A stretch of 32,000 nt of DNA from Oceanibacterium hippocampi (GTDB lineage: Bacteria > Pseudomonadota > Alphaproteobacteria > Sneathiellales > Sneathiellaceae). Of the stretch, positions 10,478-32,000 are shown in pieces (within the stretch, counting starts at the first letter, position 1; every line of letters starts with the position of its first letter). The notes under the pieces were generated by a model. The model did no database searches. It was not told the DNA's origin and saw only the letters and a list, made by a program, of their open reading frames with translations. The position numbers and the translations under genes were made by a program. The stretch is from positions 1,410,335 to 1,442,334 of the forward strand of contig NZ_FWFR01000001.1 in the NCBI RefSeq assembly GCF_900172325.1, written 5' to 3'.

Positions 10478-11476
10478 ATGCAGCACGCGAGCGACACCGC
10501 CGACACGCTTTTGCAGGAGATCGAAGCGCTCGGCGACAAGATCAGAGATCTCCGGGAAGCGATCGGCGAGGTGATCTTCGGCCAGGACGAGGTCATCACC
10601 GAAGCACTTATTACCCTTCTCGCCGGCGGCCATGCGCTGCTGATCGGGGTGCCGGGACTGGCCAAGACGCGCCTGGTCGAGACGCTGGGCACGGTGCTCG
10701 GCCTCGACGACAAGCGCATCCAGTTCACCCCGGACCTGATGCCGGCCGATATTGTCGGCTCCGAGGTGATGGACGAGGGAGAGGGCGGCCGCCGCGCCTT
10801 CCGCTTCATTCCCGGCCCGGTCTTCTGTCAGGTGCTGATGGCCGACGAGATCAACCGCGCCAGCCCGCGCACGCAATCGGCGCTGCTGCAGGCGATGCAG
10901 GAGAAGCAGGTCTCGATCGCCGGCGTCGCGCATGACCTGCCGCGCCCGTTCCATGTGCTGGCGACGCAGAATCCGCTGGAGCAGGAAGGCACCTACCCGC
11001 TGCCCGAGGCCCAACTCGACCGGTTCCTGATGCAGATCGACGTCGCCTATCCGGATCTCGAGGCCGAGCGCCGGATGCTGATCGCCACGACCGGCACCGA
11101 GGAGGCGCGTCCCCGCCAGGTGATGACCGCCGAGGAACTGCTCGCCGCCCAGCGGCTGGTCCGCCGCGTGCCGGTCGGCGATTCGGTGGTCGACGCGATC
11201 CTCGGCATCGTCCGCCAGGGCCGGCCGTCGGAAACCACCGACGACGACGTGGCCCGCCATGTCGCCTGGGGCCCCGGGCCGCGGGCCAGCCAGTCACTGA
11301 TGCTCGTGGTCACCGCCCGCGCCCTGCTCGATGGCAGGCTGTCGCCGTCGGTCGACGATGTCGTGGCGCTCGCGCCGCCCGTGCTCCGTCACCGGATGGC
11401 ACTCAATTTCGCCGCCCGTGCCGATGGCGTGACGCTGGACGACATGATCGAGAAGCTGATCGCCCCCTATCGCTAG
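10478..11476 (+). CDS. MoxR-family AAA+ ATPase
   Basis: GHALLIGVPGLAKTRLVETLG Walker A, VLMADEINRASPRTQSALLQAMQE Walker B region, ATQNPLEQEGTYPLPEAQLDRFL sensor region. Confidence 0.95.
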   Translation: MQHASDTADTLLQEIEALGDKIRDLREAIGEVIFGQDEVITEALITLLAGGHALLIGVPGLAKTRLVETLGTVLGLDDKRIQFTPDLMPADIVGSEVMDEGEGGRRAFRFIPGPVFCQVLMADEINRASPRTQSALLQAMQEKQVSIAGVAHDLPRPFHVLATQNPLEQEGTYPLPEAQLDRFLMQIDVAYPDLEAERRMLIATTGTEEARPRQVMTAEELLAAQRLVRRVPVGDSVVDAILGIVRQGRPSETTDDDVARHVAWGPGPRASQSLMLVVTARALLDGRLSPSVDDVVALAPPVLRHRMALNFAARADGVTLDDMIEKLIAPYR

Positions 11477-11487
11477 GCCGGCCGCCG

Positions 11488-12393
11488 ATGTCCCCGCCCC
11501 GTTCGCCAGCCACAACCGGGAAGACGCTGCAGCACCGGGCCGATCAGGTCGCCGCGGCCTTTCCGCCGCTGCTGATCGCCGCCGAGCGGGTCGCGGCGAC
11601 GGTCGCCCAGGGCGTCCATGGCCGCCGTCGCGTCGGCCCGGGCGAAACCTTCTGGCAGTTCCGGCGCTTCCAGAGCGGCGACCAGATCCGCGCCATCGAC
11701 TGGCGCCGCTCGGCGCGCAGCACGCACTATTTCATCCGCGATACCGAGTGGGAGGCGGCCGAAAGCGTCTGGCTCTGGCGCGACGGGTCGCCGTCCATGG
11801 ACTATCGCTCCGACGGCGCCGAGCAGACCAAGGGCGAACGCGCGACGCTGATCCTGCTCGCGGTCGCGGCGCTGCTGGTGCGGGCTTCCGAGCAGTTCGC
11901 CATGCTCGGCGACGACAGTCGGCCGCGGACCGGGCCGGCGGCGCTCAGCCGCCTCGCGGTGCAGCTGCTGCGCCCGCAGGCGGGGTCGCCCGCGGCGCTC
12001 GGCCTGCCCCGGGTCGAACCGCTGCCGCGATTCTCGCAGGCACTGCTGGTCGGCGACTTCCTCTCGCCGCTCGCCGAACTCGACGCGATCGTGCGCGGCT
12101 ATTCGGCACGCGCCGTCAAGGGCCATATCGTGCAGATTCTCGACCCCGCCGAGGCGGCGATGCCGTTTCTCGGACGCACCCGGTTCGAGGGGATGGAAGG
12201 GGAGGGCGATTTCCTGACCGGCCGGGCCGAGGCGCTGGCCGGCGACTATCGCGATCGCCTGGCCCGCCACGAGGAGGGCCTGCGGACTATCGCCCGGAAC
12301 TACGGCTGGTCCTATGTCCGCCATGTCACCGACCGGCCGCCGGAGTCGCTTCTCCTCGCGCTTTACTGCGCAATGGCCGAGCAATGGGATTGA
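11488..12393 (+). CDS. DUF58 domain-containing protein
   Basis: GRRRVGPGETFWQFRRFQSGDQIRAIDWRRSARSTHYFIRDTEWE...WLWRDGSPSMDY. Confidence 0.92.
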   Translation: MSPPRSPATTGKTLQHRADQVAAAFPPLLIAAERVAATVAQGVHGRRRVGPGETFWQFRRFQSGDQIRAIDWRRSARSTHYFIRDTEWEAAESVWLWRDGSPSMDYRSDGAEQTKGERATLILLAVAALLVRASEQFAMLGDDSRPRTGPAALSRLAVQLLRPQAGSPAALGLPRVEPLPRFSQALLVGDFLSPLAELDAIVRGYSARAVKGHIVQILDPAEAAMPFLGRTRFEGMEGEGDFLTGRAEALAGDYRDRLARHEEGLRTIARNYGWSYVRHVTDRPPESLLLALYCAMAEQWD

Positions 12394-12439
12394 ACCCGGC
12401 GCCCGTGCCTGATCCGCGCCGCCCGGCCGGCGCCGCCCC

Positions 12440-15160
12440 ATGCTGACGCTCGGACCCGTCGCCTTTGCCGCTCCCTGGCTGCTGATCGCGCTGGCGGCGC
12501 TGCCGCTGCTCTGGTGGCTGCTGCGGGTCACCCCGCCCGCGCCGCGGGTCGTCGCCTTTCCGCCGATCCGCTTTCTCTTCGATCTCCGGAACCGGGAGGA
12601 AACCCCGGTTCACACGCCCTGGTGGCTGCTGCTGCTCAGGCTGCTGATCGCGGCCTTCGTGATCCTCGCGGTCGCCCGGCCGCTGCTCAATCCCGGCGCG
12701 GTCACCGACGGTTCGGGACCGCTGCTGATCGTCCTCGACGACGGCTGGGCGGGCGCCGGCAACTGGCAGTCGCGGCGCGAGGTGATGGCCGATCTGCTGA
12801 CCGCCGCCGAACGTGGCCGCCGCCCGGTCGCGATCCTGAAGACCGCGCCGACCGCCCCTGACGGCGAGATCGCGGAGGTCCGGCTGATGTCGGCCGGCGA
12901 GGCGCGCGCCGTGGCCGGCGCCGCGGAACCGCGTCCCTGGCCGGTCGACCGGGGCCGCGCGATCGAGGCGCTGGATGCCTTCGAGGCCGGCGGCGGGGCG
13001 GAGGTGGTCTGGCTGGCCGACGGGGTCGCCGGCGATGCAGCCGGAGACGTCGCCTTTGCCCGGGCGCTGGCCGATCGCGGCCGTCTGACCGTCTATGGCG
13101 ACCCGGATCATCCGGTGATGATGCTCGACCGCCCGGAAATCGTCGGCACCGAGTTGCGCATCGAGGCGCAGCGGAGCGAAGGCGCGGCGCCGGCCGCCGA
13201 CTGGCTGAAGGCGAGCGCCGAAGGCGGTCTGGTACTGGCCCGGGTGCCGCTTTCCTTCGCCGCCGGGGAGCGCACGGCGGGCGCTGTCGTGGCGCTGCCG
13301 ACCGAACTTCGCAATCGCCTGCTCCGGCTCGAGATCGAGGGCGCCGGCAATGCCGCTGCGGTCATGCTGTTCGACGAACGCTGGCGCCGCCGGCCGGTCG
13401 GGCTGGTCTCCGGCGGCGGGCTCGAGACCGCGCAGCCGCTGCTTTCCGACATCTATTACCTGGAGCGCGCGCTGGAACCGTTCGCCGAGGTGCGCAAGGG
13501 CAGCATCGCCGAACTGATCGACCAGGGCATCGCCGTGCTGGTGCTCGCCGATGTCGGCAATGTCGTGGGCAGCGAGCGCGAGGCGCTTGACGGCTGGCTT
13601 AACGCGGGCGGCGTGCTGATCCGCTTCGCCGGCGACAAGATGGCGGCACAATCCGACGACCTGGTGCCGGTTCGCCTGCGCGTCGGCGGCCGCGACCTGG
13701 GCGGCGCGATGTCCTGGTCGGAGCCCGCCAGGCTGGCCCCGTTCGCCGACGAGAGCCCGTTCTTCGGCCTCGAGATGGCGCCCGACGTCCGGGTTCGCCG
13801 CCAGGTGCTGGCCGAGCCCGAGATCGAGCTCAAGCGCAAGACCTGGGCGGCGCTGCTCGACGGCACGCCGCTGGTCACCGCCGACCGCCACGGCGACGGA
13901 CGGATCGTGCTGTTCCACACCACCGCCAATACCGACTGGTCGAACCTGCCGCTGTCCGGGCTCTTCGTGACCATGCTGCAACGTCTCGTGGCGCTGAGCC
14001 GCGGCGTCGCGGCGGACGAGGGGCGCGAGCCGCTGCCGCCCTTCGCGATGCTGGACGGTTATGGCCGGCTGGTGCCGCCACAGAGCAACGTGGCGCGCGC
14101 GGCACCGGCCGGTTTCGACGAGATCGTGCCCGGCCCGACCCACCCGCCGGGCTTCTACGGCACCGCCGAAAGCAAGCGCGCGCTCAACCTGAGCGGCAAG
14201 CTCGGCACGCTAGAGCCGCTCGGTCCGCCGCCGGCAGGCACGGCCGAGCGGGTTTACGCGGCCGAGCAGGAGCGCGACCTGATGCCCTGGCTGCTGACCC
14301 TGGCGGTGCTGCTGCTGTTCGTCGACTTCCTGGTCTCGATGCAGCTTCGCGGCCTGTTGCGCCTGGCGGGCAGGGGCGCGGCGCCGCTCGCGCTGGCGTT
14401 CGCCCTGGCCGCAGGGCTTTCGGCCGACCCGGCACGGGCGCAGACGACCAATGACGCGGACGCGCTCGCCGCGACGCTCGAGACCCGGCTCGCCTATGTC
14501 TTGAGCGGCGAACGGGCGGTCGACGAGATGAGCCATGCCGGCCTCTACGGTCTCGGCCGGGTGCTCTCGGAGCGGACCTCGGTCGAGCCGGCGGCGCCGG
14601 CCGGGATCGATATCGAACGCGACGAGATCGTCTTCTATCCCTTGCTCTACTGGCCCGTGGTGCAGGACCAGCCGCTGCTCTCGGCGGCGGCGCTCGCCCG
14701 CGTCGATGCCTACATGAAGCACGGCGGGACGATCCTCTTCGATACCCGCGAGGGCGGCGGCTTCGAAACCGGGGCGAACGGCGCGCGGCTGCGCCAGCTG
14801 CTCCGTCTGCTCGACATTCCGCCGCTGGCACCGGTGCCCGAGAACCATGTGCTCACCAAGGCCTTCTACCTGATGCACGAGTTTCCCGGCCGCTTCCCCG
14901 GCGGCACGCTGTGGGTCGAGGCGGACGCCAGCGGCACCCATGACGGCGTCTCGGCGATCGTCATCGGCGCCAACGACTGGGCCGCGGCCTGGGCGACCGA
15001 CGAGGACGGGCGGCCGCTCGCGGCGCTCGTGCCGAACAATCCGCGCCAGCGCGAGATGGCCTATCGCTTCGGCGTCAATCTCGTGATGTACACCCTGACC
15101 GGCAACTACAAGGCCGACCAGGTGCATGTCCCGGCAATCCTCGAACGCCTGGGCCAGTGA
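12440..15160 (+). CDS. BatA N-terminal domain / DUF4159 domain membrane protein
   Basis: N-terminal AAPWLLIALAALPLLWWLLRVTPPAPRVVAFPPIRFL; C-terminal DEIVFYPLLYWPVVQDQPLLSAAALARVDAYMKHGGTILFDTRE...LTKAFYLMHEFPGRFPGG (DUF4159-like). Confidence 0.92.
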   Translation: MLTLGPVAFAAPWLLIALAALPLLWWLLRVTPPAPRVVAFPPIRFLFDLRNREETPVHTPWWLLLLRLLIAAFVILAVARPLLNPGAVTDGSGPLLIVLDDGWAGAGNWQSRREVMADLLTAAERGRRPVAILKTAPTAPDGEIAEVRLMSAGEARAVAGAAEPRPWPVDRGRAIEALDAFEAGGGAEVVWLADGVAGDAAGDVAFARALADRGRLTVYGDPDHPVMMLDRPEIVGTELRIEAQRSEGAAPAADWLKASAEGGLVLARVPLSFAAGERTAGAVVALPTELRNRLLRLEIEGAGNAAAVMLFDERWRRRPVGLVSGGGLETAQPLLSDIYYLERALEPFAEVRKGSIAELIDQGIAVLVLADVGNVVGSEREALDGWLNAGGVLIRFAGDKMAAQSDDLVPVRLRVGGRDLGGAMSWSEPARLAPFADESPFFGLEMAPDVRVRRQVLAEPEIELKRKTWAALLDGTPLVTADRHGDGRIVLFHTTANTDWSNLPLSGLFVTMLQRLVALSRGVAADEGREPLPPFAMLDGYGRLVPPQSNVARAAPAGFDEIVPGPTHPPGFYGTAESKRALNLSGKLGTLEPLGPPPAGTAERVYAAEQERDLMPWLLTLAVLLLFVDFLVSMQLRGLLRLAGRGAAPLALAFALAAGLSADPARAQTTNDADALAATLETRLAYVLSGERAVDEMSHAGLYGLGRVLSERTSVEPAAPAGIDIERDEIVFYPLLYWPVVQDQPLLSAAALARVDAYMKHGGTILFDTREGGGFETGANGARLRQLLRLLDIPPLAPVPENHVLTKAFYLMHEFPGRFPGGTLWVEADASGTHDGVSAIVIGANDWAAAWATDEDGRPLAALVPNNPRQREMAYRFGVNLVMYTLTGNYKADQVHVPAILERLGQ

Positions 15161-17232
15161 ACGCGATGGAATTCGCCGACATCCGCTTCGCCCCCCTGAT
15201 CCCGCTCTGGGCCGTGCTCGCGATGGCCGGCGTGGCCTTTCTCCTCACCCTGCTCGGGCTCTGGCGCCGCGCCGCCGGAACGCTGATCCGGGCCGGCGCG
15301 CTTGCCGTCGCCATCCTGGCGCTCGCCAATCCATCCTGGGTGCTGGAGGAACGCGAACCGCTGCCCGACGTCGCGGTGGTCGCGATCGACGAAAGCGCCA
15401 GCCAGAAGATCGGCGTCCGCGAGAACCGCGCCGAGGCCGCCGCCGCCGAGCTCGAGCGCGAACTTGCCCGCTTCCGCGACCTGGAGGTCCGCACGATCCG
15501 CGTGCCCGACGATGGCGGCGAAGCCGGCACGCTGCTCTTCGAGGCGATCCAGAAGGCGCTTTCCGATGTCCCGGCGCGCCGCCACGCCGGGGCGATCCTG
15601 GTCACCGACGGCCAGGTCCACGATGCCCCGGACGGGCTGGCCGGCTCGCCGACCGAGGCGCCCGTCCATGTCCTGCTGACCGGCGAGCGGGGCGAGGGCG
15701 ATCGTCGCCTCACGGTGACCTCGGCGCCGAGTTACGGCATCGTCGGGCGCCAGCTCTCGCTGGAACTGAAGGTCGAGGACCTCGGCCGCGAGGGCTCGGT
15801 GCCGGTCACCGTCTCGATCCGCAAGGACGACAATCCCGATCCGCTGCTCGTCCGCCTGCCGACCGGCGGCGATCACACGGTGCCCTTCACGCTCGACCAT
15901 GGCGGGCCGACCGTGCTGGAAATCGCCGTCGAGGCCGGCCCGGCCGAGCTCACGCTGAAAAACAACCGGGCCGTCGTCGTCGTCAACGGCGTGCGCGACC
16001 GGCTCCGCGTGCTGCTGGTCTCGGGCGAGCCGCATATCGGCGAACGCAGCTGGCGCAACCTGCTGAAGGCCGACCCCTCGGTCGACCTGGTGCATTTCAC
16101 CATCCTGCGTCCGCCGGAGAAGCAGGACGGCACGCCGATCCGCGAGCTGTCGCTGATCGCCTTCCCGATCCGCGAGCTGTTCGAGCTCAAGCTCGACGAG
16201 TTCGACCTGATCATCTTCGACCGCTACCGCCGGCGGGGCGTGCTGCCGCGTGCCTATCTGTCCAACATCGTCGACTACGTGACCTCGGGCGGGGCGATCC
16301 TCGAGGCCGCCGGGCCGGCCTTCGCGACGCAGCTCTCGCTCTACCGGACGCCGCTCGCCGAGGTCCTGCCGGGGCGTCCGACCGGACGCGTCCTCGAACA
16401 GCCGTTCCGCCCGGAACTGACGGCGCTCGGCCATCGCCACCCGGTGACCGGAGACCTGCCCGGCGCGGGGGTCGAGGGCGAGCCGAGCTGGGGCCGCTGG
16501 TTCCGCCAGATCGATGCCGAGGCGACCAGCGGCCGGACCCTGATGTCCGGGCCGGACGGGCGGCCGCTGCTGATCGTCGACCGGGTCGGCGAGGGACGGG
16601 TCGCCCAGCTCCTGTCGGACCATGCCTGGCTCTGGTCGCGCGGCTACGAGGGCGGCGGCCCGCAGGCGGAGATCCTGCGCCGGGTCTCGCACTGGCTGAT
16701 GAAGGAGCCGGACCTGGAGGAGGAAGTGCTGCGCGCCACCGTCGAGGGCCGCCGGCTGACCGTGCAGCGCCGCTCGCTGGAACCCGACCCGAGCCCGGTG
16801 ACGGTAACCGGGCCGTCCGGCGCGGTGAGCACGTTGACGCTCGAGGAGACCGGCGGCGGCCGCGCCGAGGGCGTGATCACCGTCGACGAGCCCGGCCTCT
16901 ACCGCCTCGACGACGGGACCCGGCGGGCGATCGCCGCCGTGGGCTCGGTCAACCCGAAGGAATATGGCGATCTCCGCACCAGCGCCGCGCCGCTCGACCC
17001 GATCCGCGAGGCGACCGGCGGCGGCAGCTACTGGCTCGGCGAGGAGGGGGTGCCAAGCGTGCGGCGGATCTCGGCCGGGCGCTCCAGCGCCGGCGGCAGC
17101 TGGATGGGACTGCGCGCCAACGGCGACTACATCGTCACCGGCCTCAGCCAGTATCCGCTCCTGCCGCCGCTGGCCCTGCTGCTGCTCGTCCTCTGCACCC
17201 AGTTCCTCGCCTGGCGGCGGGAAGGGAAGTAG
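15157..17232 (+). CDS. Large membrane protein with VWA-like N-terminal region and glutamine-amidotransferase-like domain
   Basis: GTG start overlaps the upstream TGA by 4 bp (GTGA). N-terminal TM region, VVAIDESASQKIG, RVLLVSGEPHIGERSWRNLLKADPSVDLVHFTIL, C-terminal TM LLPPLALLLLVLCTQFLAWRR. Confidence 0.88.
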   Translation: MNAMEFADIRFAPLIPLWAVLAMAGVAFLLTLLGLWRRAAGTLIRAGALAVAILALANPSWVLEEREPLPDVAVVAIDESASQKIGVRENRAEAAAAELERELARFRDLEVRTIRVPDDGGEAGTLLFEAIQKALSDVPARRHAGAILVTDGQVHDAPDGLAGSPTEAPVHVLLTGERGEGDRRLTVTSAPSYGIVGRQLSLELKVEDLGREGSVPVTVSIRKDDNPDPLLVRLPTGGDHTVPFTLDHGGPTVLEIAVEAGPAELTLKNNRAVVVVNGVRDRLRVLLVSGEPHIGERSWRNLLKADPSVDLVHFTILRPPEKQDGTPIRELSLIAFPIRELFELKLDEFDLIIFDRYRRRGVLPRAYLSNIVDYVTSGGAILEAAGPAFATQLSLYRTPLAEVLPGRPTGRVLEQPFRPELTALGHRHPVTGDLPGAGVEGEPSWGRWFRQIDAEATSGRTLMSGPDGRPLLIVDRVGEGRVAQLLSDHAWLWSRGYEGGGPQAEILRRVSHWLMKEPDLEEEVLRATVEGRRLTVQRRSLEPDPSPVTVTGPSGAVSTLTLEETGGGRAEGVITVDEPGLYRLDDGTRRAIAAVGSVNPKEYGDLRTSAAPLDPIREATGGGSYWLGEEGVPSVRRISAGRSSAGGSWMGLRANGDYIVTGLSQYPLLPPLALLLLVLCTQFLAWRREGK

Positions 17233-19112: not shown

Positions 19113-19144
19113 CACTTTACCTTGTGTGATATCAGGTTAAAGTG
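19113..19144. promoter_or_regulatory. Inverted repeat upstream of flavin reductase gene (candidate operator)
   Basis: CACTTTACC-N13-GGTTAAAGTG (complementary apart from one extra T), about 55 bp upstream of the ATG at 19199. Confidence 0.35.
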
Positions 19145-19198
19145 ATGCGCCGCGGCGCACTGCGCCCGTTCAGGTCATTCCTTCCGGGGCCGAGATCC

Positions 19199-19807
19199 AT
19201 GTTCTACACGACCGACGGCCCGCACGGCCTGCCGCACAACCCGTTCATGGCGGTCATGGTACCGCGCCCGATCGGCTGGATTTCCTCGGTGGACGCCGCC
19301 GGCAACCGCAACCTGGCGCCGTTCTCGGTGTTCAACGGCATGCCCTGCGATCCGCCGGTCGTCTTCTTCGGTCCGTCCGGACAGCACAAGGAAGGCGGCC
19401 CGAAGGACAGCCTCCGGAATATCGAGGAAACCGGGGAGTTCGTCTGCAACATCGCCACCTGGGAGACCCGCGAGGCGATGAACGCAAGCTCGGCGCTGGT
19501 GGCCCGCGATGTCGACGAGTTCGAGCTGTCCGGCCTGACGCCGCTGCCGTCGACGCTGGTGAAGCCGGCCCGGGTCGCGGAAAGCCCGGTGCATTTCGAA
19601 TGCGTCCACCTGCAGACGGTTCACCTGCCATCGAAACTGGCAGGCGTCAGCGCCCTCGTCATCGGCCAGGTCGTCGGCATCCATATCGACGAGGGCATCC
19701 TGACCGACGGCATCGTCGACATGAAGAAGTTCCGCCCGATCGCCCGGCTCGGCTCGAGCGACTATACCGTCGTCGACACTATCTTCTCGATGATCCGGCC
19801 GGGCTGA
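19199..19807 (+). CDS. Flavin reductase family protein (copy 1)
   Basis: In-frame ATG at 19199; AVMVPRPIGWISSVDAAGNRNLAPFSVFNGMPCDPPVVFFG is a characteristic FMN-binding flavin reductase-like motif. Confidence 0.92.
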   Translation: MFYTTDGPHGLPHNPFMAVMVPRPIGWISSVDAAGNRNLAPFSVFNGMPCDPPVVFFGPSGQHKEGGPKDSLRNIEETGEFVCNIATWETREAMNASSALVARDVDEFELSGLTPLPSTLVKPARVAESPVHFECVHLQTVHLPSKLAGVSALVIGQVVGIHIDEGILTDGIVDMKKFRPIARLGSSDYTVVDTIFSMIRPG

Positions 19808-19952: not shown

Positions 19953-20564
19953 ATGTTCTACAAGACCGACGGCCCGCACGGCCTGCCGCACAATCCCTTC
20001 AAGGCCGTCATGGTGCCGCGTCCGATCGGCTGGTTCTCGTCGCTCGACGCCGAGGGGAACTGCAACCTGGCGCCCTATTCCTTCTTCAACGCGATGGCTT
20101 CCGACCCGCCTGTCGTCGTTTTCGGCCACAGCGGCCGGAGCCGGCACGGCACGCCCAAGGACAGCATGCGCAATATCGAGGAGACGAAGGAATTCGTCTG
20201 CAACATCGCCACCTGGGAGACCCGCGAGGCGATGAACGCGAGCGCGGCGATGGTCGAGCGCGACGTCGACGAGTTCGCGCTCGCCGGCCTGACGCCGGTC
20301 CCCTCGACCCTGGTCCGGCCGCCGCGCGTCGCCGAGAGCCCGGTGCATTTCGAATGCGTCTACCTGCAGACCGTGCATCTGCCCTCCGACGATCCGGCGA
20401 ATTTCAACGCCGCCGTGTTCGGCCAGGTCGTCGGCGTGCATATCGACGAGAGCATCCTGACCGACGGCGTTGTCGACATGAAGAAGTTCCGCCCGATCGC
20501 CCGCCTCGGCGCGAGCGACTACGCGGTCGTCGATCATGTCTTCGCGATGCGCCGCCCGGCCTGA
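19953..20564 (+). CDS. Flavin reductase family protein (copy 2, tandem paralogue)
   Basis: AVMVPRPIGWFSSLDAEGNCNLAPYSFFNAMASDPPVVVFG; near full-length similarity to the 19199-19807 product. Confidence 0.92.
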   Translation: MFYKTDGPHGLPHNPFKAVMVPRPIGWFSSLDAEGNCNLAPYSFFNAMASDPPVVVFGHSGRSRHGTPKDSMRNIEETKEFVCNIATWETREAMNASAAMVERDVDEFALAGLTPVPSTLVRPPRVAESPVHFECVYLQTVHLPSDDPANFNAAVFGQVVGVHIDESILTDGVVDMKKFRPIARLGASDYAVVDHVFAMRRPA

Positions 20565-21479: not shown

Positions 21480-22376
21480 TCAGCCGGCAAAAAGTTTCTG
21501 CAGGGCGTCATGGGCGGTGGCGAAGGGGCGCGCGCCGGTCATGTCGCTGATGGCGGCATAATGCTCGGCGATCGCCTCCGGGCTCGCCGAGGCGACGTCG
21601 GGAAAGCGGTGCCCGGTCGCCTCGATCACCTGAACCTTCGCGTAGAAGCCGGCGCCGCATTCGACGATATCGCCGCTCGCCTCGCAGGCCTCCGAGGCGA
21701 AATAGGAAACCAGAGCCGCCACGTAGGCCGGATCAAGACGCTTCAGGATCGCCTCGGGGAAGATCGTCTCGCCCATCCGGGTCGCCGCGACCGGGGCGAT
21801 CGTGTTGACCTTGATGCCGTATTTCGCGCCCTCGATCTTCAGCGCGTTCATCAGGCCGATCAGGCCCATCTTGGCGGCGGCGTAATTCGCCTGGCCGAAA
21901 TTGCCGTAGAGCCCGGCCGCCGACGTGGTCATGACGATGCGGCCGTATCCCTGTTCCCTCATCAGCGGGAAGGCGGCATGGCTCACGAAGGCCGAGCCGA
22001 GCAGGTGGACACGCAGCACCGCCTCGAAATCGGCCGGGTCCATCTTCTGGAAGCTCTTGTCACGCAGGATGCCGGCATTGTTGACGAGGATGTCGAGCCG
22101 GCCGAAGGTCTCGACCGCTTTCGCCACGATGGCCGCCGCCTCGGTCGCCTCGGCGACGCTTTCGTAGGCCGCGACCGCCTCGCCGCCGGCCGCCCTGATC
22201 TCTTCCACCACGCTGTCGGCGGCCCGGTGGGTCGCGCCGGAACCGTCCAGAGCGCCGCCCGGATCGTTGACGACGACACGGGCGCCGCGTTCGGCCAGCG
22301 CCAGTGCATGGGCCCGGCCGAGGCCCTGGCCGGACCCGGTGACGATGGCGACGCGGCCGTCGAGGCGGATGGTCAT
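21480..22376 (-). CDS. SDR-family oxidoreductase (3-hydroxyacyl-CoA dehydrogenase / MFE-2-like)
   Basis: ATG at 22376; MTIRLDGRVAIVTGSGQGLGRAHALALAERGARVVVNDPGG, NNAGILRDKSFQKM, YAAAK catalytic YxxxK. Confidence 0.93.
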   Translation of the reverse strand: MTIRLDGRVAIVTGSGQGLGRAHALALAERGARVVVNDPGGALDGSGATHRAADSVVEEIRAAGGEAVAAYESVAEATEAAAIVAKAVETFGRLDILVNNAGILRDKSFQKMDPADFEAVLRVHLLGSAFVSHAAFPLMREQGYGRIVMTTSAAGLYGNFGQANYAAAKMGLIGLMNALKIEGAKYGIKVNTIAPVAATRMGETIFPEAILKRLDPAYVAALVSYFASEACEASGDIVECGAGFYAKVQVIEATGHRFPDVASASPEAIAEHYAAISDMTGARPFATAHDALQKLFAG

Positions 22377-22508
22377 ATGCGCGGCTCCCCTGCTGTCGAA
22401 CGCTTTCCAACCGTTATGCCCGAGCCCCGGCCCGGGGCCAAGAGGGGCGCTTGACCGCAAGGTGGGCGCGGGCGGAAGATCCGACCGGGGCAAGTAGGCG
22501 AGGGAGCC

Positions 22509-23336
22509 GTGGCGGAAGGAGCGCCGGCAGGGCGGTTCAGCGATCCGGGCCGGCACGCGGCGGCGCTTTGCCGGATCGTTCAGGGTCTCGTCCTTCACGA
22601 GCAGCTCGGGCCTCTCCACGGTGTCGCGATCCCGGCGGAGCGCCGGGCCGAGGTCCATATCCGGGCGCTCGACGAGATGCTCGACCGGATGCTGGAACTC
22701 GATCCCGCTTCTCTGGACGTCGCCCGCCCGCCGCTGCGGCGACTGGTCGGCAGTTGCCGAGATTACGCGCTCCTGCTGATCGCGATGCTGCGGGCGCAAG
22801 GCTGCGAGGCCCGCGCACGTTGCGGCTTCGCGGGCTACTTCGAACCCGGGCGCCATGTCGATCACTGGGTGGCCGAATGGCGGCGGCCCGGCGGGCATCG
22901 CTGGACCCGACTCGATGCGGAACTGGACCCGGGCGCGATCGCCGCCTTCGCGATCGATCTCGATCCGCTGGACGTGCCCGTCGACCGTTTCCTCGACGCC
23001 GGTACCGCCTGGACGCTGGCGCGCGCCGGGGCCCTCGATCCGGACGGCTTCGGGATTGCCGGGATGTCCGGATACTGGTTCATGACCGGCAATCTGCTTC
23101 GCGATCTCGCGGCCCTGAACGGGGTCGAGACGCTGCCCTGGGACTGCTGGGGCGCGATGGCGGCCGATTTCGAGACCCTGGACGCCGCACGGTTGGCCCG
23201 GTTCGACCGCCTCGCCGCAATCGTCAGGGGCACGGCGCCGGACCTCGCGGCCTGCCGGGCGGCCTATGCCGAACCGGGGATGCTGGTGCCGGCGACGGTG
23301 CGGAACGCCGTGCGTGGCCGGGACGAGGCGATCTAG
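22509..23336 (+). CDS. Transglutaminase-like domain protein
   Basis: GSCRDYALLLIAMLRAQGCEARARCGFAGYFEPGRHVDHWVAEW: Cys-His-Asp arrangement of the transglutaminase-like fold. Confidence 0.85.
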   Translation: MAEGAPAGRFSDPGRHAAALCRIVQGLVLHEQLGPLHGVAIPAERRAEVHIRALDEMLDRMLELDPASLDVARPPLRRLVGSCRDYALLLIAMLRAQGCEARARCGFAGYFEPGRHVDHWVAEWRRPGGHRWTRLDAELDPGAIAAFAIDLDPLDVPVDRFLDAGTAWTLARAGALDPDGFGIAGMSGYWFMTGNLLRDLAALNGVETLPWDCWGAMAADFETLDAARLARFDRLAAIVRGTAPDLAACRAAYAEPGMLVPATVRNAVRGRDEAI

Positions 23337-23830
23337 CCGATCAGCGCCTCGGCGGCGGCGATATTGTTGACATGGCGGTCGCGCATCTCGCGAAGGCCGG
23401 CATGGATCGCGTCGTCGGCGATCCGGGGCAGCAGTTCGCCGAGCCGCTTCGCGACCCAGTCCTGGCCGCGGTTGAGGAAGGCGAGGCGTTCGTCCGGGGT
23501 CTCGCGGCGGAGCGCCTTCTCGAGGAAACTGCCGGTCGCCTTGCTGGGCTCCGCGCCGAGGCGGCCGACGAAGTCGGTGAGCAGGGCGCAATAGCGCGCC
23601 TCGTCGTCGCGCGCCGCCTCGAGCGTCGCCCGCGCCGTCGCCGGCCAGGTGTCGTCCCTGAGCCAGGCGGCGAGCGTGCGTGCCCCGGCGCGCTCGGCCT
23701 CCAGCAACTCGTTGAGGGCCACGGCCAGCTCGGCCGGCGGCAGATAGCCCATATAGTCGGGCGGAGCCTCGGCCATCGCGCAGGGCGGCGAGGCGCCCTC
23801 GTTCCTGTTGCCGGCTTCCTCGTTGGCCAT
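23333..23830 (-). CDS. Ferritin-like / DUF6306-type protein
   Basis: ATG at 23830; LNELLEAERAGARTLAAWL, EARYCALLTDFV, MRDRHVNNIAAAEAL; helical with Glu residues. Confidence 0.7.
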   Translation of the reverse strand: MANEEAGNRNEGASPPCAMAEAPPDYMGYLPPAELAVALNELLEAERAGARTLAAWLRDDTWPATARATLEAARDDEARYCALLTDFVGRLGAEPSKATGSFLEKALRRETPDERLAFLNRGQDWVAKRLGELLPRIADDAIHAGLREMRDRHVNNIAAAEALIG

Positions 23831-23846
23831 CGTGTCCTCTCCCGCC

Positions 23847-25124
23847 TCAGTGCGTCCGTTCGAGGATGACGACCGAGCAGGCCGCTTCCTCGACACCCAT
23901 GACCCCGCCGCCGTTCTCCTGGATCGCGAAGGTCGGGTCCTTCACCTGGCGGTCGCCGGCCTCGCCGCGAAGCTGGCGAACCATCTCCTCGATCATCGAG
24001 AGCCCGGTGGCGCCGACCGGGTGGCCCTTCGAGACCAGCCCGCCCGAGGTGTTGATCGGGATCCGCCCGTCGAGCGCCGTCTCGCCGTCCGCGGCCAGCT
24101 TGCCGCCGTCGCCAAAGTCGCAGAAGCCGAGCATCTCCGACTGGTAGACCTCGCAGAACGAGGTCGCGTCATGTACCTCGGCGAGCGACATGTCGGCCGG
24201 GGAGAGCCCGGCGAAGTCGTAAGCCTTCCGGGCCGCGACATGGCTGAGCGAGGGCTCGTCAAGGGCCCGGTACTTGCCGCCGGTGAGCACGCTCGCCCGT
24301 ACCTTCACCGCGCGCGCCTGCGCCTCCTTCGGCAGGTTGGCCAGGAAATCGCCGGAGCAGAGGATGGCGGCGGCCGCCCCGTCGCCGATCGGCGCGCACA
24401 TCGAGCGCGTCAGCGGCGGGCTGACCGGGCGGTCGCCCAGGACCTGCTCGGCGGTCATCTCGAAGCGGTATTGCGCCTTCGGGTTATTCGCGCCGTTGTT
24501 ATGGCTCTTGGCCGCGGCGGCGGCGATCTGCGCCTGGGTCGTGCCGTAGGTCTGCATGTGCCAGGCGGCCTGCATGGCGTAGGTGTCCATGAAGATCGTG
24601 CGGTCGCCGCCGGGCGCGAAGGGGCGACCGATGGCCTCGCCGACCTCGCGGTAATGGTCCTGCCATTCCTCCGGGTCGAGATTGTCGATGCCGGCCTGGA
24701 AACCGGCCTGGATCCTCTCCCAGTCGCCGGCGAAGAAGGTCTTCTCGACGCCGATGGCGAGCGAGCACTGGACCATCCCGGACATGATATCCTTGACCGC
24801 GCCGTGGAAGGCCATGGAGGCGGTGGCGCAGGCGCCCTCGACATTGACGATCGGCACGCGCTCGGGGAACAGGCCCTCGCGGACCAGCGGCGTGAAGCAG
24901 ACCTGGCCGCGGATGCAGGCCTGGTCGGCATTCCACATGCCGCAATTGCCGAACCAGCCGAACTCGATGGCGCTGCCGTCCTCGAGCCCGGAATCCTCGA
25001 GCACGCCCAGGTAGGCCTCCCGCGTCAGGTCCTTGAAGCTGCGGCCCGGGTACTTGCCGAACGCGCTGGTGTAGGCGCCGATGACATAGACATCTCGCAG
25101 CGTGGCATCGGGCATCGGGGGCAT
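23847..25124 (-). CDS. Thiolase family protein, SCP2/lipid-transfer type
   Basis: VNVEGACATASMAFHGAV catalytic Cys region, HDATSFCEV, GGLVSKGHPVGATG, ENGGGVMG. The second ATG (25115) is better spaced from the GAGGAG Shine-Dalgarno and may be the true start. Confidence 0.9.
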   Translation of the reverse strand: MPPMPDATLRDVYVIGAYTSAFGKYPGRSFKDLTREAYLGVLEDSGLEDGSAIEFGWFGNCGMWNADQACIRGQVCFTPLVREGLFPERVPIVNVEGACATASMAFHGAVKDIMSGMVQCSLAIGVEKTFFAGDWERIQAGFQAGIDNLDPEEWQDHYREVGEAIGRPFAPGGDRTIFMDTYAMQAAWHMQTYGTTQAQIAAAAAKSHNNGANNPKAQYRFEMTAEQVLGDRPVSPPLTRSMCAPIGDGAAAAILCSGDFLANLPKEAQARAVKVRASVLTGGKYRALDEPSLSHVAARKAYDFAGLSPADMSLAEVHDATSFCEVYQSEMLGFCDFGDGGKLAADGETALDGRIPINTSGGLVSKGHPVGATGLSMIEEMVRQLRGEAGDRQVKDPTFAIQENGGGVMGVEEAACSVVILERTH

Positions 25125-25198: not shown

Positions 25199-26647
25199 TC
25201 AGGGATAAATCGCGGCCCGGAAATCGGCGGCGATCTGCGCCGCCGCCGGCCCCGGCGCGGTTGGCCCTTCGAGCGGCGGTACCGCCGCGCGGATTTGCCC
25301 GAGCCTTGCGGCGAGCGCCGGCGGCACCGCCCGTCCGGTCGCGTGGAAGGCCTGGCTGGCGACCAGCGCCAGGGTGGCCAGCGCCGATTCCAGCATCCGC
25401 CCGGCCTCGGCCTGGCCGATCCAGGCGAAGCTCGAATTGGTGGCGACGTCGTTCTGGCCGAAGCCGCCGCTTTCCGCGCCCGGCAGGAAGGTCCGCGCCG
25501 CCGCCCGCCGGGCCTGCTCGCCATAGCCGACCAGCGCCATCGGCGTGCAGCCGAGATAGGGCAGCGCGCCGTCCCCGGTGCCGAGCTGGTCGGGCAGCAG
25601 CGAGATCGCGCCGTCGAGCGTCTTGGCGGCGATCCGGTCGGCCAGCGTGCAGAGATCGGCGTAGGCGGCGGCCAGTTCGTCCATCGCCGGCGCCGCCATC
25701 GCGTTGTGATAGCCGCCAGTCGAGGCGATCCGGCCGTTCGGATGCGCCGGATCGGCCTCGTCGCCGGGCGGCAGGTAGACCGGGTTGTCGGTAACGGCCG
25801 CAAGCGAGACCCCGGCCGCGCGCCGCGCCTCGGCCTCCGCCCGCCGGGCGCGCGCCAGCAGGCGCGGCAGGATGCGGAACGAGACCGGTGCCTGGTAGGG
25901 CCGCCGCCTGTCGGTGCCGCCGGCGATGAGCGCGCGCATCCGGGCGAGCGTCGCCGTCTCGTGCGGATCGCCCCAGAGCGTCCCGAGGGCCTCGTCGAGA
26001 TGCTCCCGCGGCGCCTGGAAGGCCTCGTAGGCGAGCGCGAAGATTTCCTCGGCGACGGCGAGGCGGCGTTCGGCCAGAAGCACGGAATCGGCGATCAGCG
26101 CGCTTGCCATCGGACTGCCGTTGATCAGCGCCAGCGCCTCCTTCTCGGCCAGCGTCACGCGTTCGGCGAGCGGCACGAACAGGTGCGAAAGCGCGAGGAT
26201 CTCGCCGGCCCCGCCCAGGCCGTCCATGGGCACGAGCGGCAGCGACGGGTCGTCGAGCAGGGCCGCCACGGCCTCGGCGAGCGGCAGGCTGACCGCGGCA
26301 TGGCCGCCCAGGAAATTGGCGAGCCGGGCGAAGACGATGCCCCGGGTCACCCGCTCCGGCATCGGCGGGCCGAAACTCGCCATGTCCGGATAGGGCGGGC
26401 GCTTCGCCTGGGCCTTCCGGCCGGCCTCGTCGAGCCGTATCTTCGCCTGCTGGCCATAGCCCGAGGTGACGCCGTAGACGGTGATGCCGGGCTGCTCGAT
26501 CAGGCGCAGGAAGGCGGCCCGGGCGGCCGCGATGCGCGCCCCGGCCTCGGCCCCGATCCGCACCGTCGCGCCCTCCCAGGCGACCCGGCGGTAGCGGTCG
26601 AGCGTCAGGTCGGCACGGCTTTCGAGCGTGATCACGCGGTCGGTCAT
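25199..26647 (-). CDS. Aromatic amino acid ammonia-lyase (HAL/PAL) family homologue lacking the canonical MIO triad
   Basis: YGVTSGYG, VPMDGLGGAGEILALSHLF, LALINGSPMASALI, VSFRILPRLLA, VTDNPVYLPPG, GGFGQNDVATNSSF: the ordered motif set of the family, but no Ala-Ser-Gly. Confidence 0.85.
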   Translation of the reverse strand: MTDRVITLESRADLTLDRYRRVAWEGATVRIGAEAGARIAAARAAFLRLIEQPGITVYGVTSGYGQQAKIRLDEAGRKAQAKRPPYPDMASFGPPMPERVTRGIVFARLANFLGGHAAVSLPLAEAVAALLDDPSLPLVPMDGLGGAGEILALSHLFVPLAERVTLAEKEALALINGSPMASALIADSVLLAERRLAVAEEIFALAYEAFQAPREHLDEALGTLWGDPHETATLARMRALIAGGTDRRRPYQAPVSFRILPRLLARARRAEAEARRAAGVSLAAVTDNPVYLPPGDEADPAHPNGRIASTGGYHNAMAAPAMDELAAAYADLCTLADRIAAKTLDGAISLLPDQLGTGDGALPYLGCTPMALVGYGEQARRAAARTFLPGAESGGFGQNDVATNSSFAWIGQAEAGRMLESALATLALVASQAFHATGRAVPPALAARLGQIRAAVPPLEGPTAPGPAAAQIAADFRAAIYP

Positions 26648-30660: not shown

Positions 30661-30748
30661 GTGGCGTGGATGTCAGATTGTGCATCGCGGCATTGGCGCG
30701 CCCGCGTTGGTGCCGCAGCCCTTAATCGGGCGTTTCCTCCCTTGACTT

Positions 30749-30785
30749 GGGCTGCTTCCCGAAACGGAAGCAGCCCCTTTTTTTT
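30749..30785 (+). terminator. Rho-independent terminator, plus strand
   Basis: GGGCTGCTTCC-CGAAAC-GGAAGCAGCCC followed by C and T8; 11-bp perfect stem. The reverse strand has no U tract after the stem. Confidence 0.9.
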
Positions 30786-30809
30786 GCCTGCCCGGAAGGG
30801 TGTGCCGGG

Positions 30810-31378: not shown

Positions 31379-32000
31379 TCAGGGCAGCAGCAGGGAATGG
31401 GACATGGCGCCCAGCCGCTCGATCAGCCGGGTCATGTCGGCGGCCAGGCGCCCGAGCGCCGGGAGCCGCTCGATCCGCTCCTCATCCATGTAGAGGGCGC
31501 GGTTGATCTCGATCTGCAGCGCGTGATAGCCGCGCTCCGGCTGGCCGTAGCGAACCGTCGTATGGCCGCCGGCATAGGGCGCGTTGCGGGCGACCCGGTA
31601 GCCGAGATCGGTGAGCGCACGCGCCGCGTGGTCGGTCAGCGCCGGCGCGCAGGCGGTGCCGTATCGGTCGCCGAGCACGATGTCGGCGCGGCGGTCGCCG
31701 TCGTCCTGGTCCATCGGCCCGCCGATCGACGGCATCGAATGGCAATCGACCACGACGGCGAAACCGAAGCGGGCGCGGGTATCGGAAAGCAGACGGGCCA
31801 GCGCCCGGTGATAGGGGTTGTAGCAGTCGCGGACCCGTCGCTCGGCCTCGGCGAAAGACAGCTTACGGGCATAGATCTCGCAACCGTTGGCGACGACCCG
31901 GGCAAGCGTGCCGAGGCCGCCGGCGACGCGCACGCTGGTCGTGTTGACGAAATCCGGCAGGGGCTCGGCGAACATCGCCGGGTCGAGCTCGTAGGGTTCC
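31379..32000 (-). CDS. N-formylglutamate amidohydrolase family protein (partial, runs off window end)
   Basis: VVDCHSMPSIG, YAGGHTTVRYGQPERGYHALQIEINRALYMDE; frame stays open to 32000 (upstream residues EPYELDPAMFAEPLPDF), so the track start at 31975 is internal. Confidence 0.9.
   Translation of the reverse strand, partial: EPYELDPAMFAEPLPDFVNTTSVRVAGGLGTLARVVANGCEIYARKLSFAEAERRVRDCYNPYHRALARLLSDTRARFGFAVVVDCHSMPSIGGPMDQDDGDRRADIVLGDRYGTACAPALTDHAARALTDLGYRVARNAPYAGGHTTVRYGQPERGYHALQIEINRALYMDEERIERLPALGRLAADMTRLIERLGAMSHSLLLP

What the first reader, a model, noticed from the sequence alone, without database searches (positions are those of the whole stretch)
25199..26647. HAL/PAL-family protein without the MIO-forming Ala-Ser-Gly triad
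The protein carries the ordered signature segments of aromatic amino acid ammonia-lyases and aminomutases. Where canonical enzymes read VP..GSVGASGDLAPLAH, this one reads VPMDGLGGA-GEILALSH. I reverse-complemented the DNA by hand (ATG GAC GGC CTG GGC GGG GCC GGC GAG ATC CTC) to confirm this. The serine whose backbone cyclises into 4-methylideneimidazol-5-one is either deleted (best alignment) or replaced by Ala (ungapped alternative). Other catalytic positions also look changed by motif alignment: the SHAAG His region is replaced by PDMASFG; QDxYSxR is QAPVSFR (Tyr to Val, Arg kept); NFH is GYH; QEDHVS is QNDVAT (Glu to Asn). The first Tyr (YGVTSGYG) and the NG motif Asn (LINGSP) are retained. 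This pattern suggests a MIO-independent chemistry or non-enzymatic function on a lyase scaffold rather than a decaying gene, because the ORF is intact at full length. I cannot say from sequence alone whether the subfamily is already described.
Basis: partly seen in the sequence, partly recalled or inferred. Interest (0 to 1): 0.75.

Follow-up and report, generated by a model that had tools for sequence, protein, structure and literature searches.

The report
MIO-less histidase relative, probable betaine lyase
This intact gene encodes a relative of histidine ammonia-lyase that cannot make the family's usual built-in cofactor. It belongs to a large uncharacterised bacterial clade whose members sit beside betaine importers and histidine-breakdown genes, so it most likely splits trimethylamine off histidine betaine rather than ammonia off histidine.

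Summary
ORF 25199-26647 (-) encodes a 482-aa PF00221 protein (E=6.7e-55) that reads Gly146-Ala147-Gly148 where MIO enzymes read Ala-Ser-Gly. It is not decay or a sequencing error. More than 1500 homologues share the feature, and across 80 diverse cluster representatives the 'Ser' position is A39/P22/S11. In the same set the catalytic Tyr58 and the carboxylate clamp (Asn176, Gln252, Arg258, Asn288) are kept in 72-75 of 80. Family members that read GASGE show the Ser is substituted, not deleted; the one-residue gap lies upstream of the triad. The AlphaFold model (pLDDT 93) matches HAL, TAM and the MIO-less ergothionase (TM 0.82-0.88). The window's own neighbours (thiolase-like, DUF6306) are not conserved. 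Relatives are informative. The closest ones (62-63% identity) lie inside a ProU/OpuAC betaine-type ABC importer operon flanked by HutF and HutI. A subgroup whose members are 80-90% identical to one another is found as hutC-hutU-X, as hutI-hutU-X, and as OpuAC-X next to a trimethylamine monooxygenase. A Rhizobium copy sits beside ergothioneine-utilisation genes ErtD and ErtE. Best reading: a cytoplasmic, MIO-independent histidine-betaine-type trimethylammonia-lyase that feeds urocanate to the Hut pathway. This is a new variant of a recently recognised kind and has no biochemical test. The public name 'MIO-dependent tyrosine 2,3-aminomutase' is wrong.

The parts
25199..26647 (-). Complete gene for the 482-aa MIO-less PF00221 protein (WP_085882591.1, Oceanibacterium hippocampi)
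   Evidence: AlphaFold pLDDT 93.3; Foldseek matches to HAL, TAM and ergothionase
26204..26212 (-). Codons ggg gcc ggc = Gly146-Ala147-Gly148, the position of the Ala-Ser-Gly triad that forms MIO in canonical enzymes
   Evidence: aligns with ASG of 7tqr and SgTAM. The middle residue is A39/P22/S11/other in 80 diverse family representatives.
26474..26476 (-). Tyr58 (YGVTSGYG), equivalent to the beta-proton-abstracting Tyr53 of P. putida HAL
   Evidence: invariant in 80 close homologues and present in 72 of 80 distant representatives
26120..26122 (-). Asn176 (INGSP), equivalent to HAL Asn195
   Evidence: present in 72 of 80 representatives
25874..25894 (-). Gln252-Ala-Pro-Val255-Ser-Phe-Arg258. 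The carboxylate clamp (Gln, Arg) is kept. Val replaces HAL Tyr280 and is a signature of the clade.
   Evidence: Q 74/80, V 69/80, R 75/80
25784..25786 (-). Asn288 (TDNPV), equivalent to HAL Asn313
   Evidence: present in 73 of 80 representatives
25445..25480 (-). Conserved Gly-rich loop G390-AESGGFGQNDV-401. It is the lowest-confidence stretch of the model and replaces the HAL SANQEDHVS segment (Asn399 for Glu414).
   Evidence: G394, G395, G397, Q398, N399, D400 invariant; block pLDDT 57
23847..25124 (-). Downstream thiolase-like gene, 74 nt after the lyase gene. It is adjacent here only and is not part of the conserved system.
   Evidence: not found next to any other family member
23333..23896 (-). 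DUF6306 gene following the thiolase-like gene. It is not conserved with the family.

Best explanation
The gene encodes a cytoplasmic enzyme on the histidine ammonia-lyase scaffold that does not form MIO. It most likely catalyses alpha,beta-elimination of trimethylamine from a histidine-derived betaine, hercynine (N-alpha-trimethylhistidine) or a close analogue, giving urocanate for the Hut pathway. In the proposed mechanism, Arg258, Gln252, Asn176 and Asn288 hold the substrate carboxylate. Tyr58 on the mobile inner loop removes the beta-proton. The quaternary ammonium leaves without covalent activation, so neither the MIO electrophile (Ser to Ala/Pro) nor the Tyr280 partner (to Val) is needed. 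Shown here: the fold, the absence of a MIO-competent triad across the clade, retention of the base and the carboxylate clamp, and the association of orthologues with betaine importers, hut genes, Tmm and ErtD/ErtE. Inferred: the reaction, the substrate, and transfer of the function to the window protein, which is 50-63% identical to the context-bearing members.
For: (1) The fold and family are established: PF00221 E=6.7e-55; the model has pLDDT 93 and TM 0.82-0.88 to HAL, TAM, TAL and the MIO-less ergothionase 6s7j. (2) MIO is dispensable across the clade: the middle residue is A39/P22/S11 of 80 and Tyr280 becomes Val in 69/80, while Tyr58, Asn176, Gln252, Arg258 and Asn288 are kept in 72-75/80. 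(3) There is precedent: the only natural MIO-less PF00221 enzymes reported in the literature I could search are trimethylammonia-lyases, namely ergothionase, Swoo_3913 histidine betaine lyase, SO_3057 and SO_3299 (bioRxiv 10.1101/2025.08.13.670108 and 10.64898/2026.04.22.720169). (4) The closest homologues, P0002 and P0004 (62-63% identity), are encoded as ProV-ProW-X-ProW-OpuAC on one strand with a 4-nt overlap, flanked by HutF (654 bits, cut-off 637) and HutI (468 and 483 bits, cut-off 298). (5) Subgroup B members are 80-90% identical to one another, so their contexts can be pooled. L039 reads hutF | hutI-hutU-X. L046 reads hutC-hutU-X with overlapping junctions; HutC matches 2pkh at E=1.7e-29 and the urocanase matches 1uwl at E=2e-291. 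L054 has ProW and ProV divergent from OpuAC-X, with a trimethylamine monooxygenase equivalog two genes away (829 bits, cut-off 675). (6) In Rhizobium jaguaris, X is followed by ProV, two ProW genes and OpuAC, and is divergent from ErtD (760 bits, cut-off 600) and ErtE (575 bits, cut-off 520) of ergothioneine utilisation. (7) All of these members carry the same GGAGE, QAPVSxR and GGYHN motifs as the window protein; the GGFGQNDV loop motif is also shared, except that the R. jaguaris copy reads AGAGQDDV.
Against: The residues that bind the imidazole ring in HAL, ergothionase and Swoo_3913 (His83 and Glu414 equivalents) are not kept: position 88 is variable and small, and position 399 is Asn. A histidine-type ring would therefore have to be bound differently. 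Most loci, roughly 60 of about 90 including the window itself, show no hut or betaine context. OpuAC-family ABC transporters in hut loci can import histidine itself (S. meliloti HutXWV; from memory). The window protein is only 50-63% identical to the context-bearing members. No enzyme of this clade has been assayed.
Confidence: 0.55

Rival explanations
1. It is a MIO-independent lyase, or a related isomerase or hydratase, acting on a carboxylate substrate that is not derived from histidine. Examples would be another amino-acid betaine, such as a tyrosine, tryptophan or aliphatic betaine, or another compound with a good leaving group. Under this reading the window's subgroup differs in substrate from the hut-linked members.
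For: The His83 and Glu414 equivalents are lost. Contexts are varied: Rieske/VanA_C oxygenase clusters, UbiD/UbiX decarboxylase in Rhizobium, DMGDH-like genes in 5 loci and Gfa in 3 loci. The window locus has no hut genes apart from an isolated FGase 4.7 kb away.
Against: The product-consuming neighbours that can be identified are urocanase, HutI and HutF. The active-site motifs are the same in the hut-linked members and the window protein.
Confidence: 0.22
2. It is a true histidine ammonia-lyase that works without MIO and replaces HutH in hut operons.
For: In L039 and L046 it occupies the hutH position directly after hutU, and no canonical hutH is visible in the held DNA. OpuAC-type HutXWV transporters import histidine in some bacteria (from memory).
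Against: In P. putida HAL, replacing the MIO Ser with Ala abolishes activity (established knowledge). Pro at the Ser position in 22 of 80 representatives excludes any MIO-like ring. The histidine-binding His83 and Glu414 are both lost. The Tmm and ErtD/ErtE neighbours point to a betaine. Only 12-21 kb of each genome could be inspected, so a canonical hutH elsewhere is not excluded.
Confidence: 0.08
3. It is a catalytically inactive scaffold protein, either a pseudoenzyme or a binding or regulatory subunit.
Against: The catalytic base Tyr58 and the carboxylate-binding Arg, Gln and two Asn residues are conserved across phyla. The gene is embedded in catabolic and transport operons with translational coupling.
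Confidence: 0.07
4. It is an ergothionase proper (ergothioneine to thiourocanate plus trimethylamine) of a second, unrecognised type.
For: ErtD and ErtE equivalogs lie next to the R. jaguaris copy, together with an OpuAC-type importer. Ergothionase 6s7j is a top structural match (TM 0.86-0.88).
Against: No urocanase-family (ErtB-type) gene is present in that cluster, and none of the ORFs scanned there matched an Ert model other than ErtD and ErtE. Other members sit with HutU, HutI and HutF, which are not needed for thiourocanate. By sequence the family is closer to HAL and TAM (profile E=1e-40 and 4e-37) than to 6s7j (1.7e-20, N-terminal part only).
Confidence: 0.08

Closest known systems
Histidine betaine trimethylammonia-lyase Swoo_3913 (Shewanella woodyi) and SO_3299 (S. 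oneidensis)
   Same: A PF00221 scaffold without Ala-Ser-Gly that keeps the catalytic Tyr and the carboxylate-binding Gln, Arg and Asn. The proposed reaction is the same: betaine to 2-enoate plus trimethylamine, with the product handed to a urocanate-consuming enzyme encoded nearby.
   Different: Those enzymes are periplasmic, are coupled to flavocytochrome urocanate reductases for anaerobic respiration, and keep the His and Glu imidazole binders. This clade is cytoplasmic (no signal peptide seen by eye in the N-terminal sequence; not tested with a prediction tool), has lost both residues, carries Val for Tyr280, and is linked to Hut catabolism and ABC import.
Ergothionase (Treponema denticola Td_ETL, PDB 6s7j; Burkholderia ErtA; SO_3057)
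   Same: A MIO-less member of the same fold; TM 0.86-0.88 to the model; eliminates trimethylamine.
   Different: Only 19% identity. A sequence match is found only to the N-terminal third. Ergothionase keeps His and Glu and needs Lys384 for the thiolate. No NCBIfam Ert lyase model matched the window protein.
Histidine ammonia-lyase HutH (P. putida 1b8f; T. acidophilum 7tqr)
   Same: Best profile match in the PDB (7tqr, E=1e-40), TM 0.87, the same Tyr, Asn, Gln, Arg and Asn constellation, and the same position after hutU in two loci.
   Different: No Ala-Ser-Gly; Tyr280 becomes Val; His83 and Glu414 are lost; about 29 residues are deleted after the MIO site; the score is 146 bits against the HutH equivalog cut-off of 539.
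Tyrosine 2,3-aminomutase SgTAM/CmdF (the name UniProt gives this protein)
   Same: Highest pairwise identity to a solved structure (25-26%); reads NQD where this protein reads QND.
   Different: SgTAM is MIO-dependent and has His93 for the phenol. This protein scores 84 bits against the cut-off of 501. The UniProt name is an automatic mis-transfer.
Second HutH-like paralogue of Pseudomonas hut loci (hutH1 of P. fluorescens SBW25; PA5093 next to hutXWV)
   Same: A HAL homologue inside a hut locus beside an OpuAC-type ABC transporter and not required for growth on histidine (gene order from memory).

Membership tests
PF00221 aromatic amino acid lyase superfamily (fold) | Significant match to the Pfam model and the HAL/PAL all-helical fold | tested here: met
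   E=6.7e-55, 187 bits against a cut-off of 27.3; model TM 0.82-0.88 to HAL, TAM, TAL and ergothionase
MIO-dependent ammonia-lyases and aminomutases (HAL, PAL, TAL, PAM, TAM) | (Ala/Thr/Ser/Cys)-Ser-Gly triad that cyclises to MIO | tested here: not met
   Gly146-Ala147-Gly148 aligns with ASG. No ASG, TSG, SSG or CSG followed by Asp occurs anywhere in the protein. The clade has A, P or S at the Ser column.
MIO-dependent ammonia-lyases and aminomutases (HAL, PAL, TAL, PAM, TAM) | Second active-site Tyr (HAL Tyr280 / PAL Tyr351) next to MIO | tested here: not met
   Val255; Val in 69 of 80 representatives
MIO-dependent ammonia-lyases and aminomutases (HAL, PAL, TAL, PAM, TAM) | MIO chromophore (about 308-315 nm) and sensitivity to NaBH4 or nucleophiles | not testable with these tools
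   Requires purified protein
Histidine ammonia-lyase HutH (NCBIfam TIGR01225 / NF006871) | Score above the curated equivalog cut-off | tested here: not met
   145.6 bits against 539.15 and 147.2 against 524
Histidine ammonia-lyase HutH (NCBIfam TIGR01225 / NF006871) | Imidazole-binding His83 and Glu414 | tested here: not met
   Asp88 at a variable column, and Asn399
MIO-independent trimethylammonia-lyases (ergothionase, histidine betaine lyase) | PF00221 scaffold lacking Ala-Ser-Gly but keeping the beta-proton-abstracting Tyr | tested here: met
   Tyr58 is invariant in close homologues, and GAG replaces ASG
MIO-independent trimethylammonia-lyases (ergothionase, histidine betaine lyase) | Carboxylate-binding Gln, Arg and Asn (Swoo_3913 Gln308, Arg314, Asn339) | tested here: met
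   Gln252, Arg258 and Asn288 are conserved; the residue list comes
MIO-independent trimethylammonia-lyases (ergothionase, histidine betaine lyase) | His and Glu ligands of the imidazole nitrogens (Swoo_3913 His117, Glu467) | tested here: not met
   The equivalent columns are variable (position 88) or Asn (position 399). They were mapped through HAL and TAM, not through a direct alignment to the lyases.
MIO-independent trimethylammonia-lyases (ergothionase, histidine betaine lyase) | Genes for uptake of the betaine, for use of the 2-enoate product, or for oxidation of trimethylamine encoded alongside | tested here: inconclusive
   Met in relatives: OpuAC operons, hutU/hutI/hutF, Tmm, ErtD/ErtE. 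Not met at the window locus.
MIO-independent trimethylammonia-lyases (ergothionase, histidine betaine lyase) | Release of trimethylamine from an N-alpha-trimethyl amino acid | not testable with these tools
   Enzyme assay needed
Ergothionase specifically | Lys384 (Td_ETL) binding the thiolate | not tested
   The 6s7j sequence could not be retrieved for alignment, and the HMMER match covers only residues 9-153 of the chain

The most novel reading that the evidence does not exclude
The clade is a genuine HutH replacement: a histidine ammonia-lyase that eliminates ammonia from L-histidine with no MIO cofactor. This would explain why it occupies the hutH slot after hutU in operons where no canonical hutH is visible, and it would overturn the view that MIO is indispensable for this reaction.
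Probability: 0.08. Interest if true: 0.9.

Novelty: new variant of a known kind. Interest (0 to 1): 0.58.

Why it matters
If the prediction holds, a clade of at least several thousand proteins now annotated 'histidine ammonia-lyase', 'aromatic amino acid lyase' or even 'MIO-dependent tyrosine 2,3-aminomutase' would be cytoplasmic betaine lyases. They would connect hercynine, the abundant precursor and oxidation product of ergothioneine, to the ordinary histidine-utilisation pathway in soil and marine bacteria. That would add a route of trimethylamine production and a missing step in the environmental turnover of ergothioneine-type compounds. It would also represent a second, apparently independent loss of MIO, with a differently built substrate pocket. 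The hypothesis can be tested directly with one recombinant protein and commercially available hercynine and ergothioneine.

Tried and rejected
(1) An operon with the downstream thiolase-like and DUF6306 genes as a functional clue: rejected, because neither is next to any other family member.

(2) A pseudogene or sequencing error: rejected on family-wide conservation.

(3) An upstream riboswitch or RNA element: Rfam finds only mmgR at 30711-30791.

(4) Informative domain fusions: none; the long or odd hits are N-terminal extensions, fragments or one chimeric assembly.

(5) A single universally conserved neighbour: none. Clustering 1221 neighbour proteins from 77 loci gave no family present in more than 16 loci. 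The hut and betaine signal emerged only after equivalog-level annotation of individual loci.

(6) My own interim conclusion that the substrate cannot be an imidazole compound, based on loss of His83 and Glu414: downgraded after the hutU, hutI and hutF contexts were found. 

(7) Placement of the one-residue gap at the Ser: rejected in favour of Ser to Ala.

(9) Zhang and Rainey 2007, on hutH1, is not held in the library.

(10) The sequences of Td_ETL, Swoo_3913 and Pseudomonas HutH1/PA5093 could not be obtained, so no direct alignment with the known MIO-less lyases was made. 

(11) Model coordinates are not exposed, so no pocket analysis was possible.
Full report
**The observation.**

The window is 65-72% GC, and third-position GC singles out real genes. 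ORF 25199-26647 on the minus strand (482 aa, ATG start, GC3 0.91) is one of them. It matches Pfam PF00221 (Lyase_aromatic) at E=6.7e-55. It reaches only 146 bits on the NCBIfam HutH equivalog, whose cut-off is 539, and it fails every other lyase and mutase model. The protein is identical to WP_085882591.1 of Oceanibacterium hippocampi. NCBI calls it 'aromatic amino acid lyase' and UniRef calls it 'MIO-dependent tyrosine 2,3-aminomutase'.

**Site-by-site check.**

- Tyr58 (YGVTSGYG) is kept.
- Asn176 (NGS) is kept.
- Gln252 and Arg258 are kept, but Val255 replaces HAL Tyr280.
- Asn288 (DNP) is kept.
- GYH replaces NFH.
- QND replaces QED.
- The His83 equivalent is Asp88, in a variable column.

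Two refinements follow. First, the triad is substituted, not shortened. G146-A147-G148-E149 aligns with A-S-G-D, and the one-residue gap lies just upstream. Family members that read GASGE or GGSGE settle the register. Second, the family lacks about 29 residues between the MIO site and the NGS motif, and it has a short insertion before GGYHN.

**A conserved clade, not a decaying gene.**

The word-indexed search finds 1564 homologues at E<=1e-5. The best 120 are all about 480 aa long and 56-63% identical, from Rhodospirillales, Kiloniellales, Dongiaceae, Hyphomicrobiales, Halofilum, Methylomirabilota and others. The exhaustive search of 50%-identity representatives finds 183 clusters at E<1e-30. 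Eighty close homologues share invariant Y58, N176, S256, R258, D287-N288-P289, G311-G312, and G394, G395, G397-Q398-N399-D400.

Across 80 full-length diverse representatives, rooted with HAL and TAM, the column of the MIO serine reads A 39, P 22, S 11, G 2, T 2, C 1 and D 1. In the same set Tyr58 is present in 72, Asn176 in 72, Gln252 in 74, Arg258 in 75 and Asn288 in 73, and Val replaces Tyr280 in 69. A proline cannot take part in the MIO ring. Serine-bearing members are scattered through the tree rather than basal. The clade therefore keeps the base and the carboxylate clamp but is indifferent to the MIO serine.

The AlphaFold model built on 80 sequences is confident (pLDDT 93.3, pTM 0.93). 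Its only weak stretch is the conserved Gly-rich loop at 390-400. Foldseek against the PDB returns SgTAM, P. putida HAL (TM 0.87), R. sphaeroides TAL and the MIO-less ergothionase 6s7j (TM 0.86-0.88). By sequence profile the family is nearer to HAL and TAM (E=1e-40 and 4e-37, full length) than to ergothionase (E=1.7e-20, N-terminal third only). This suggests that MIO was lost independently here.

**What is known.**

Full-text searches found only one kind of natural MIO-less PF00221 enzyme, the trimethylammonia-lyases. These are ergothionase (Td_ETL, SO_3057), histidine betaine lyase (Swoo_3913, described as a novel enzyme in 2025) and the N-pi-methyl histidine betaine lyase SO_3299 (read). They need no MIO because trimethylamine is a good leaving group. 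They keep the His and Glu that bind the imidazole ring. No paper in the library describes the present clade.

**Genomic context.**

At the window locus the gene is followed by a thiolase-like gene and a DUF6306 gene, and it is preceded divergently by a small ORF and a DedA-type gene. None of these recurs elsewhere. I clustered 1221 neighbour proteins from 77 species-representative loci, and no family was present in more than 16 loci. Many copies stand alone.

Equivalog-level annotation of individual loci changed the picture.

(i) The closest relatives of the window protein (P0002 and P0004, 62-63% identity; P0002 is seen on 16 contigs) are encoded inside a quaternary-amine-type ABC importer operon: ProV, ProW, X, ProW, OpuAC. 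The X/ProW junction overlaps by 4 nt. The operon is flanked by formimidoylglutamate deiminase HutF (654 bits, cut-off 637) and imidazolonepropionase HutI (468 and 483 bits, cut-off 298).

(ii) A second subgroup has members 80-90% identical to one another and 50-53% identical to the window protein. It is found in three arrangements:
- hutF | hutI-hutU-X in an Ectothiorhodospiraceae MAG.
- hutC-hutU-X with overlapping junctions in an alphaproteobacterial MAG. The regulator's best PDB match is the histidine utilisation repressor 2pkh (E=1.7e-29). The urocanase matches P. putida urocanase at E=2e-291.
- ProW and ProV divergent from OpuAC-X, with a trimethylamine monooxygenase equivalog two genes away (829 bits, cut-off 675).

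(iii) On the Rhizobium jaguaris chromid, X is followed by ProV, two ProW genes and OpuAC. It is divergent from ErtD hydantoin-5-propionate amidohydrolase (760 bits, cut-off 600) and ErtE N-carbamyl-L-glutamate amidohydrolase (575 bits, cut-off 520), both from the ergothioneine-utilisation pathway, and from UbiD and UbiX. R. tropici CIAT 899 keeps X and UbiD with only a remnant of ErtE.

(iv) Weaker signals of methylated-amine metabolism also occur: DMGDH-like genes in 5 loci, Gfa in 3, Rieske/VanA_C oxygenases, FolD and an MttB-family gene.

All context-bearing members carry the same GGAGE, QAPVSxR and GGYHN motifs as the window protein. The GGFGQNDV loop motif is also shared, except in the R. 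jaguaris copy, which reads AGAGQDDV.

**Interpretation.**

Within one near-identical subgroup the neighbours supply an importer of the betaine class, the enzyme that consumes urocanate, and the enzyme that oxidises trimethylamine. The reaction that joins all three is histidine betaine to urocanate plus trimethylamine. This is the reaction of the only precedent for MIO-less members of the fold. It also explains the paired loss of the MIO serine and Tyr280. I therefore take the family to be cytoplasmic histidine-betaine-type trimethylammonia-lyases that feed the Hut pathway, and the window protein to be a member (confidence 0.55).

The main objections are these:
- The His83 and Glu414 equivalents are missing, so the imidazole ring must be held differently.
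- The window locus and most other loci give no contextual support.
- OpuAC-type transporters in hut loci can carry histidine (from memory).
- Nothing has been assayed.

The rivals are a different betaine or other activated substrate (0.22), ergothionase proper (0.08), a MIO-independent histidase (0.08) and a pseudoenzyme (0.07).

**Novelty and score.**

Absence of MIO in this fold is no longer new. What is new is this clade: it is large, apparently independent of the known lyases, has a differently built pocket, is undescribed in the searchable literature, is systematically misannotated, and suggests an unreported hercynine-to-Hut route. I rate it a new variant of a known kind, with interest 0.58. 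The residual chance that it is a cofactor-less histidase is small but would be of high interest.

Noticed in passing
L004, L005, L009, L012, L015, L019, L020, L026, L030, L031, L049, L051-53, L056, L061, L075, L084, L088, L089, L092, L094 (e.g. L088 10240-11199 -): A fatty-acid-desaturase-family membrane protein (PF00487, about 300-340 aa, three His boxes) lies next to the lyase gene in 22 of 97 loci. It is always on the opposite strand, usually convergent within 0-1200 nt. It is the commonest neighbour overall. It is absent from the window and its role is unknown.
   Followed up: partly
L031 8263-10001, L084, L094 6287-8004, L088 11322-12991: An XRE-type HTH_3 regulator (about 290 aa) and a PhnD-like PF12974 binding protein form an operon with the lyase gene, overlapping it by 4 nt, in Defluviicoccus-type loci. 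The operon is surrounded by a Rieske oxygenase, ferredoxin, reductase and DUF3500. The same HTH_3 and PhnD-like pair sits between the lyase operon and hutI in L088.
   Followed up: partly
window 30711-30791 (+): Rfam match to the alphaproteobacterial sRNA mmgR (RF00519, 61 bits against a gathering score of 41).
   Followed up: no
window 10478-17232 (+): A MoxR AAA ATPase, DUF58, a BatA/DUF4159 protein (906 aa) and a 691-aa protein with no Pfam hit form a Bat-like 'aerotolerance' operon.
   Followed up: no
window 21480-23591 (-): The 703-aa ORF is an artefact of high GC. Only its C-terminal third (about 21480-22400) is a short-chain dehydrogenase. The rest overlaps a transglutaminase-like gene on the + strand (22509-23336) and the DUF6306 gene.
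   Followed up: yes
window 31379-32000 (-), continuing beyond the window (L093 4346-5269): An N-formylglutamate amidohydrolase (FGase/HutG-like, 307 aa) lies 4.7 kb from the lyase gene. No other hut gene is within 10 kb, so the link is weak.
   Followed up: partly
window 25199-26647 (-), public annotation: UniRef names this protein 'MIO-dependent tyrosine 2,3-aminomutase' and JGI names its relatives 'histidine ammonia-lyase'. Both names are contradicted by the missing MIO triad and the sub-threshold model scores.
   Followed up: yes
L087 (Rhizobium tropici CIAT 899 pRtrCIAT899c 1805800-1825170) and L086: The model symbiont R. tropici CIAT 899 carries a family member (52% identity) next to a UbiD-family decarboxylase, with only a 77-aa remnant of ErtE. 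R. jaguaris has the full ErtD, ErtE, UbiD, UbiX and ProU-type set. The pair looks like a natural before-and-after of cluster decay and offers a tractable genetic system.
   Followed up: partly
L018, L026, L047, L059 (e.g. L026 9423-10001): A carboxymuconolactone-decarboxylase/AhpD-like 'peroxidase-related' gene (about 190 aa) lies directly upstream on the same strand, overlapping the lyase gene by 4 nt in L026. It occurs in four Hyphomicrobiales-type loci.
   Followed up: no
window 19142-19807 (+) and 19953-20564 (+): Two tandem flavin-reductase-like genes (PF01613).
   Followed up: no
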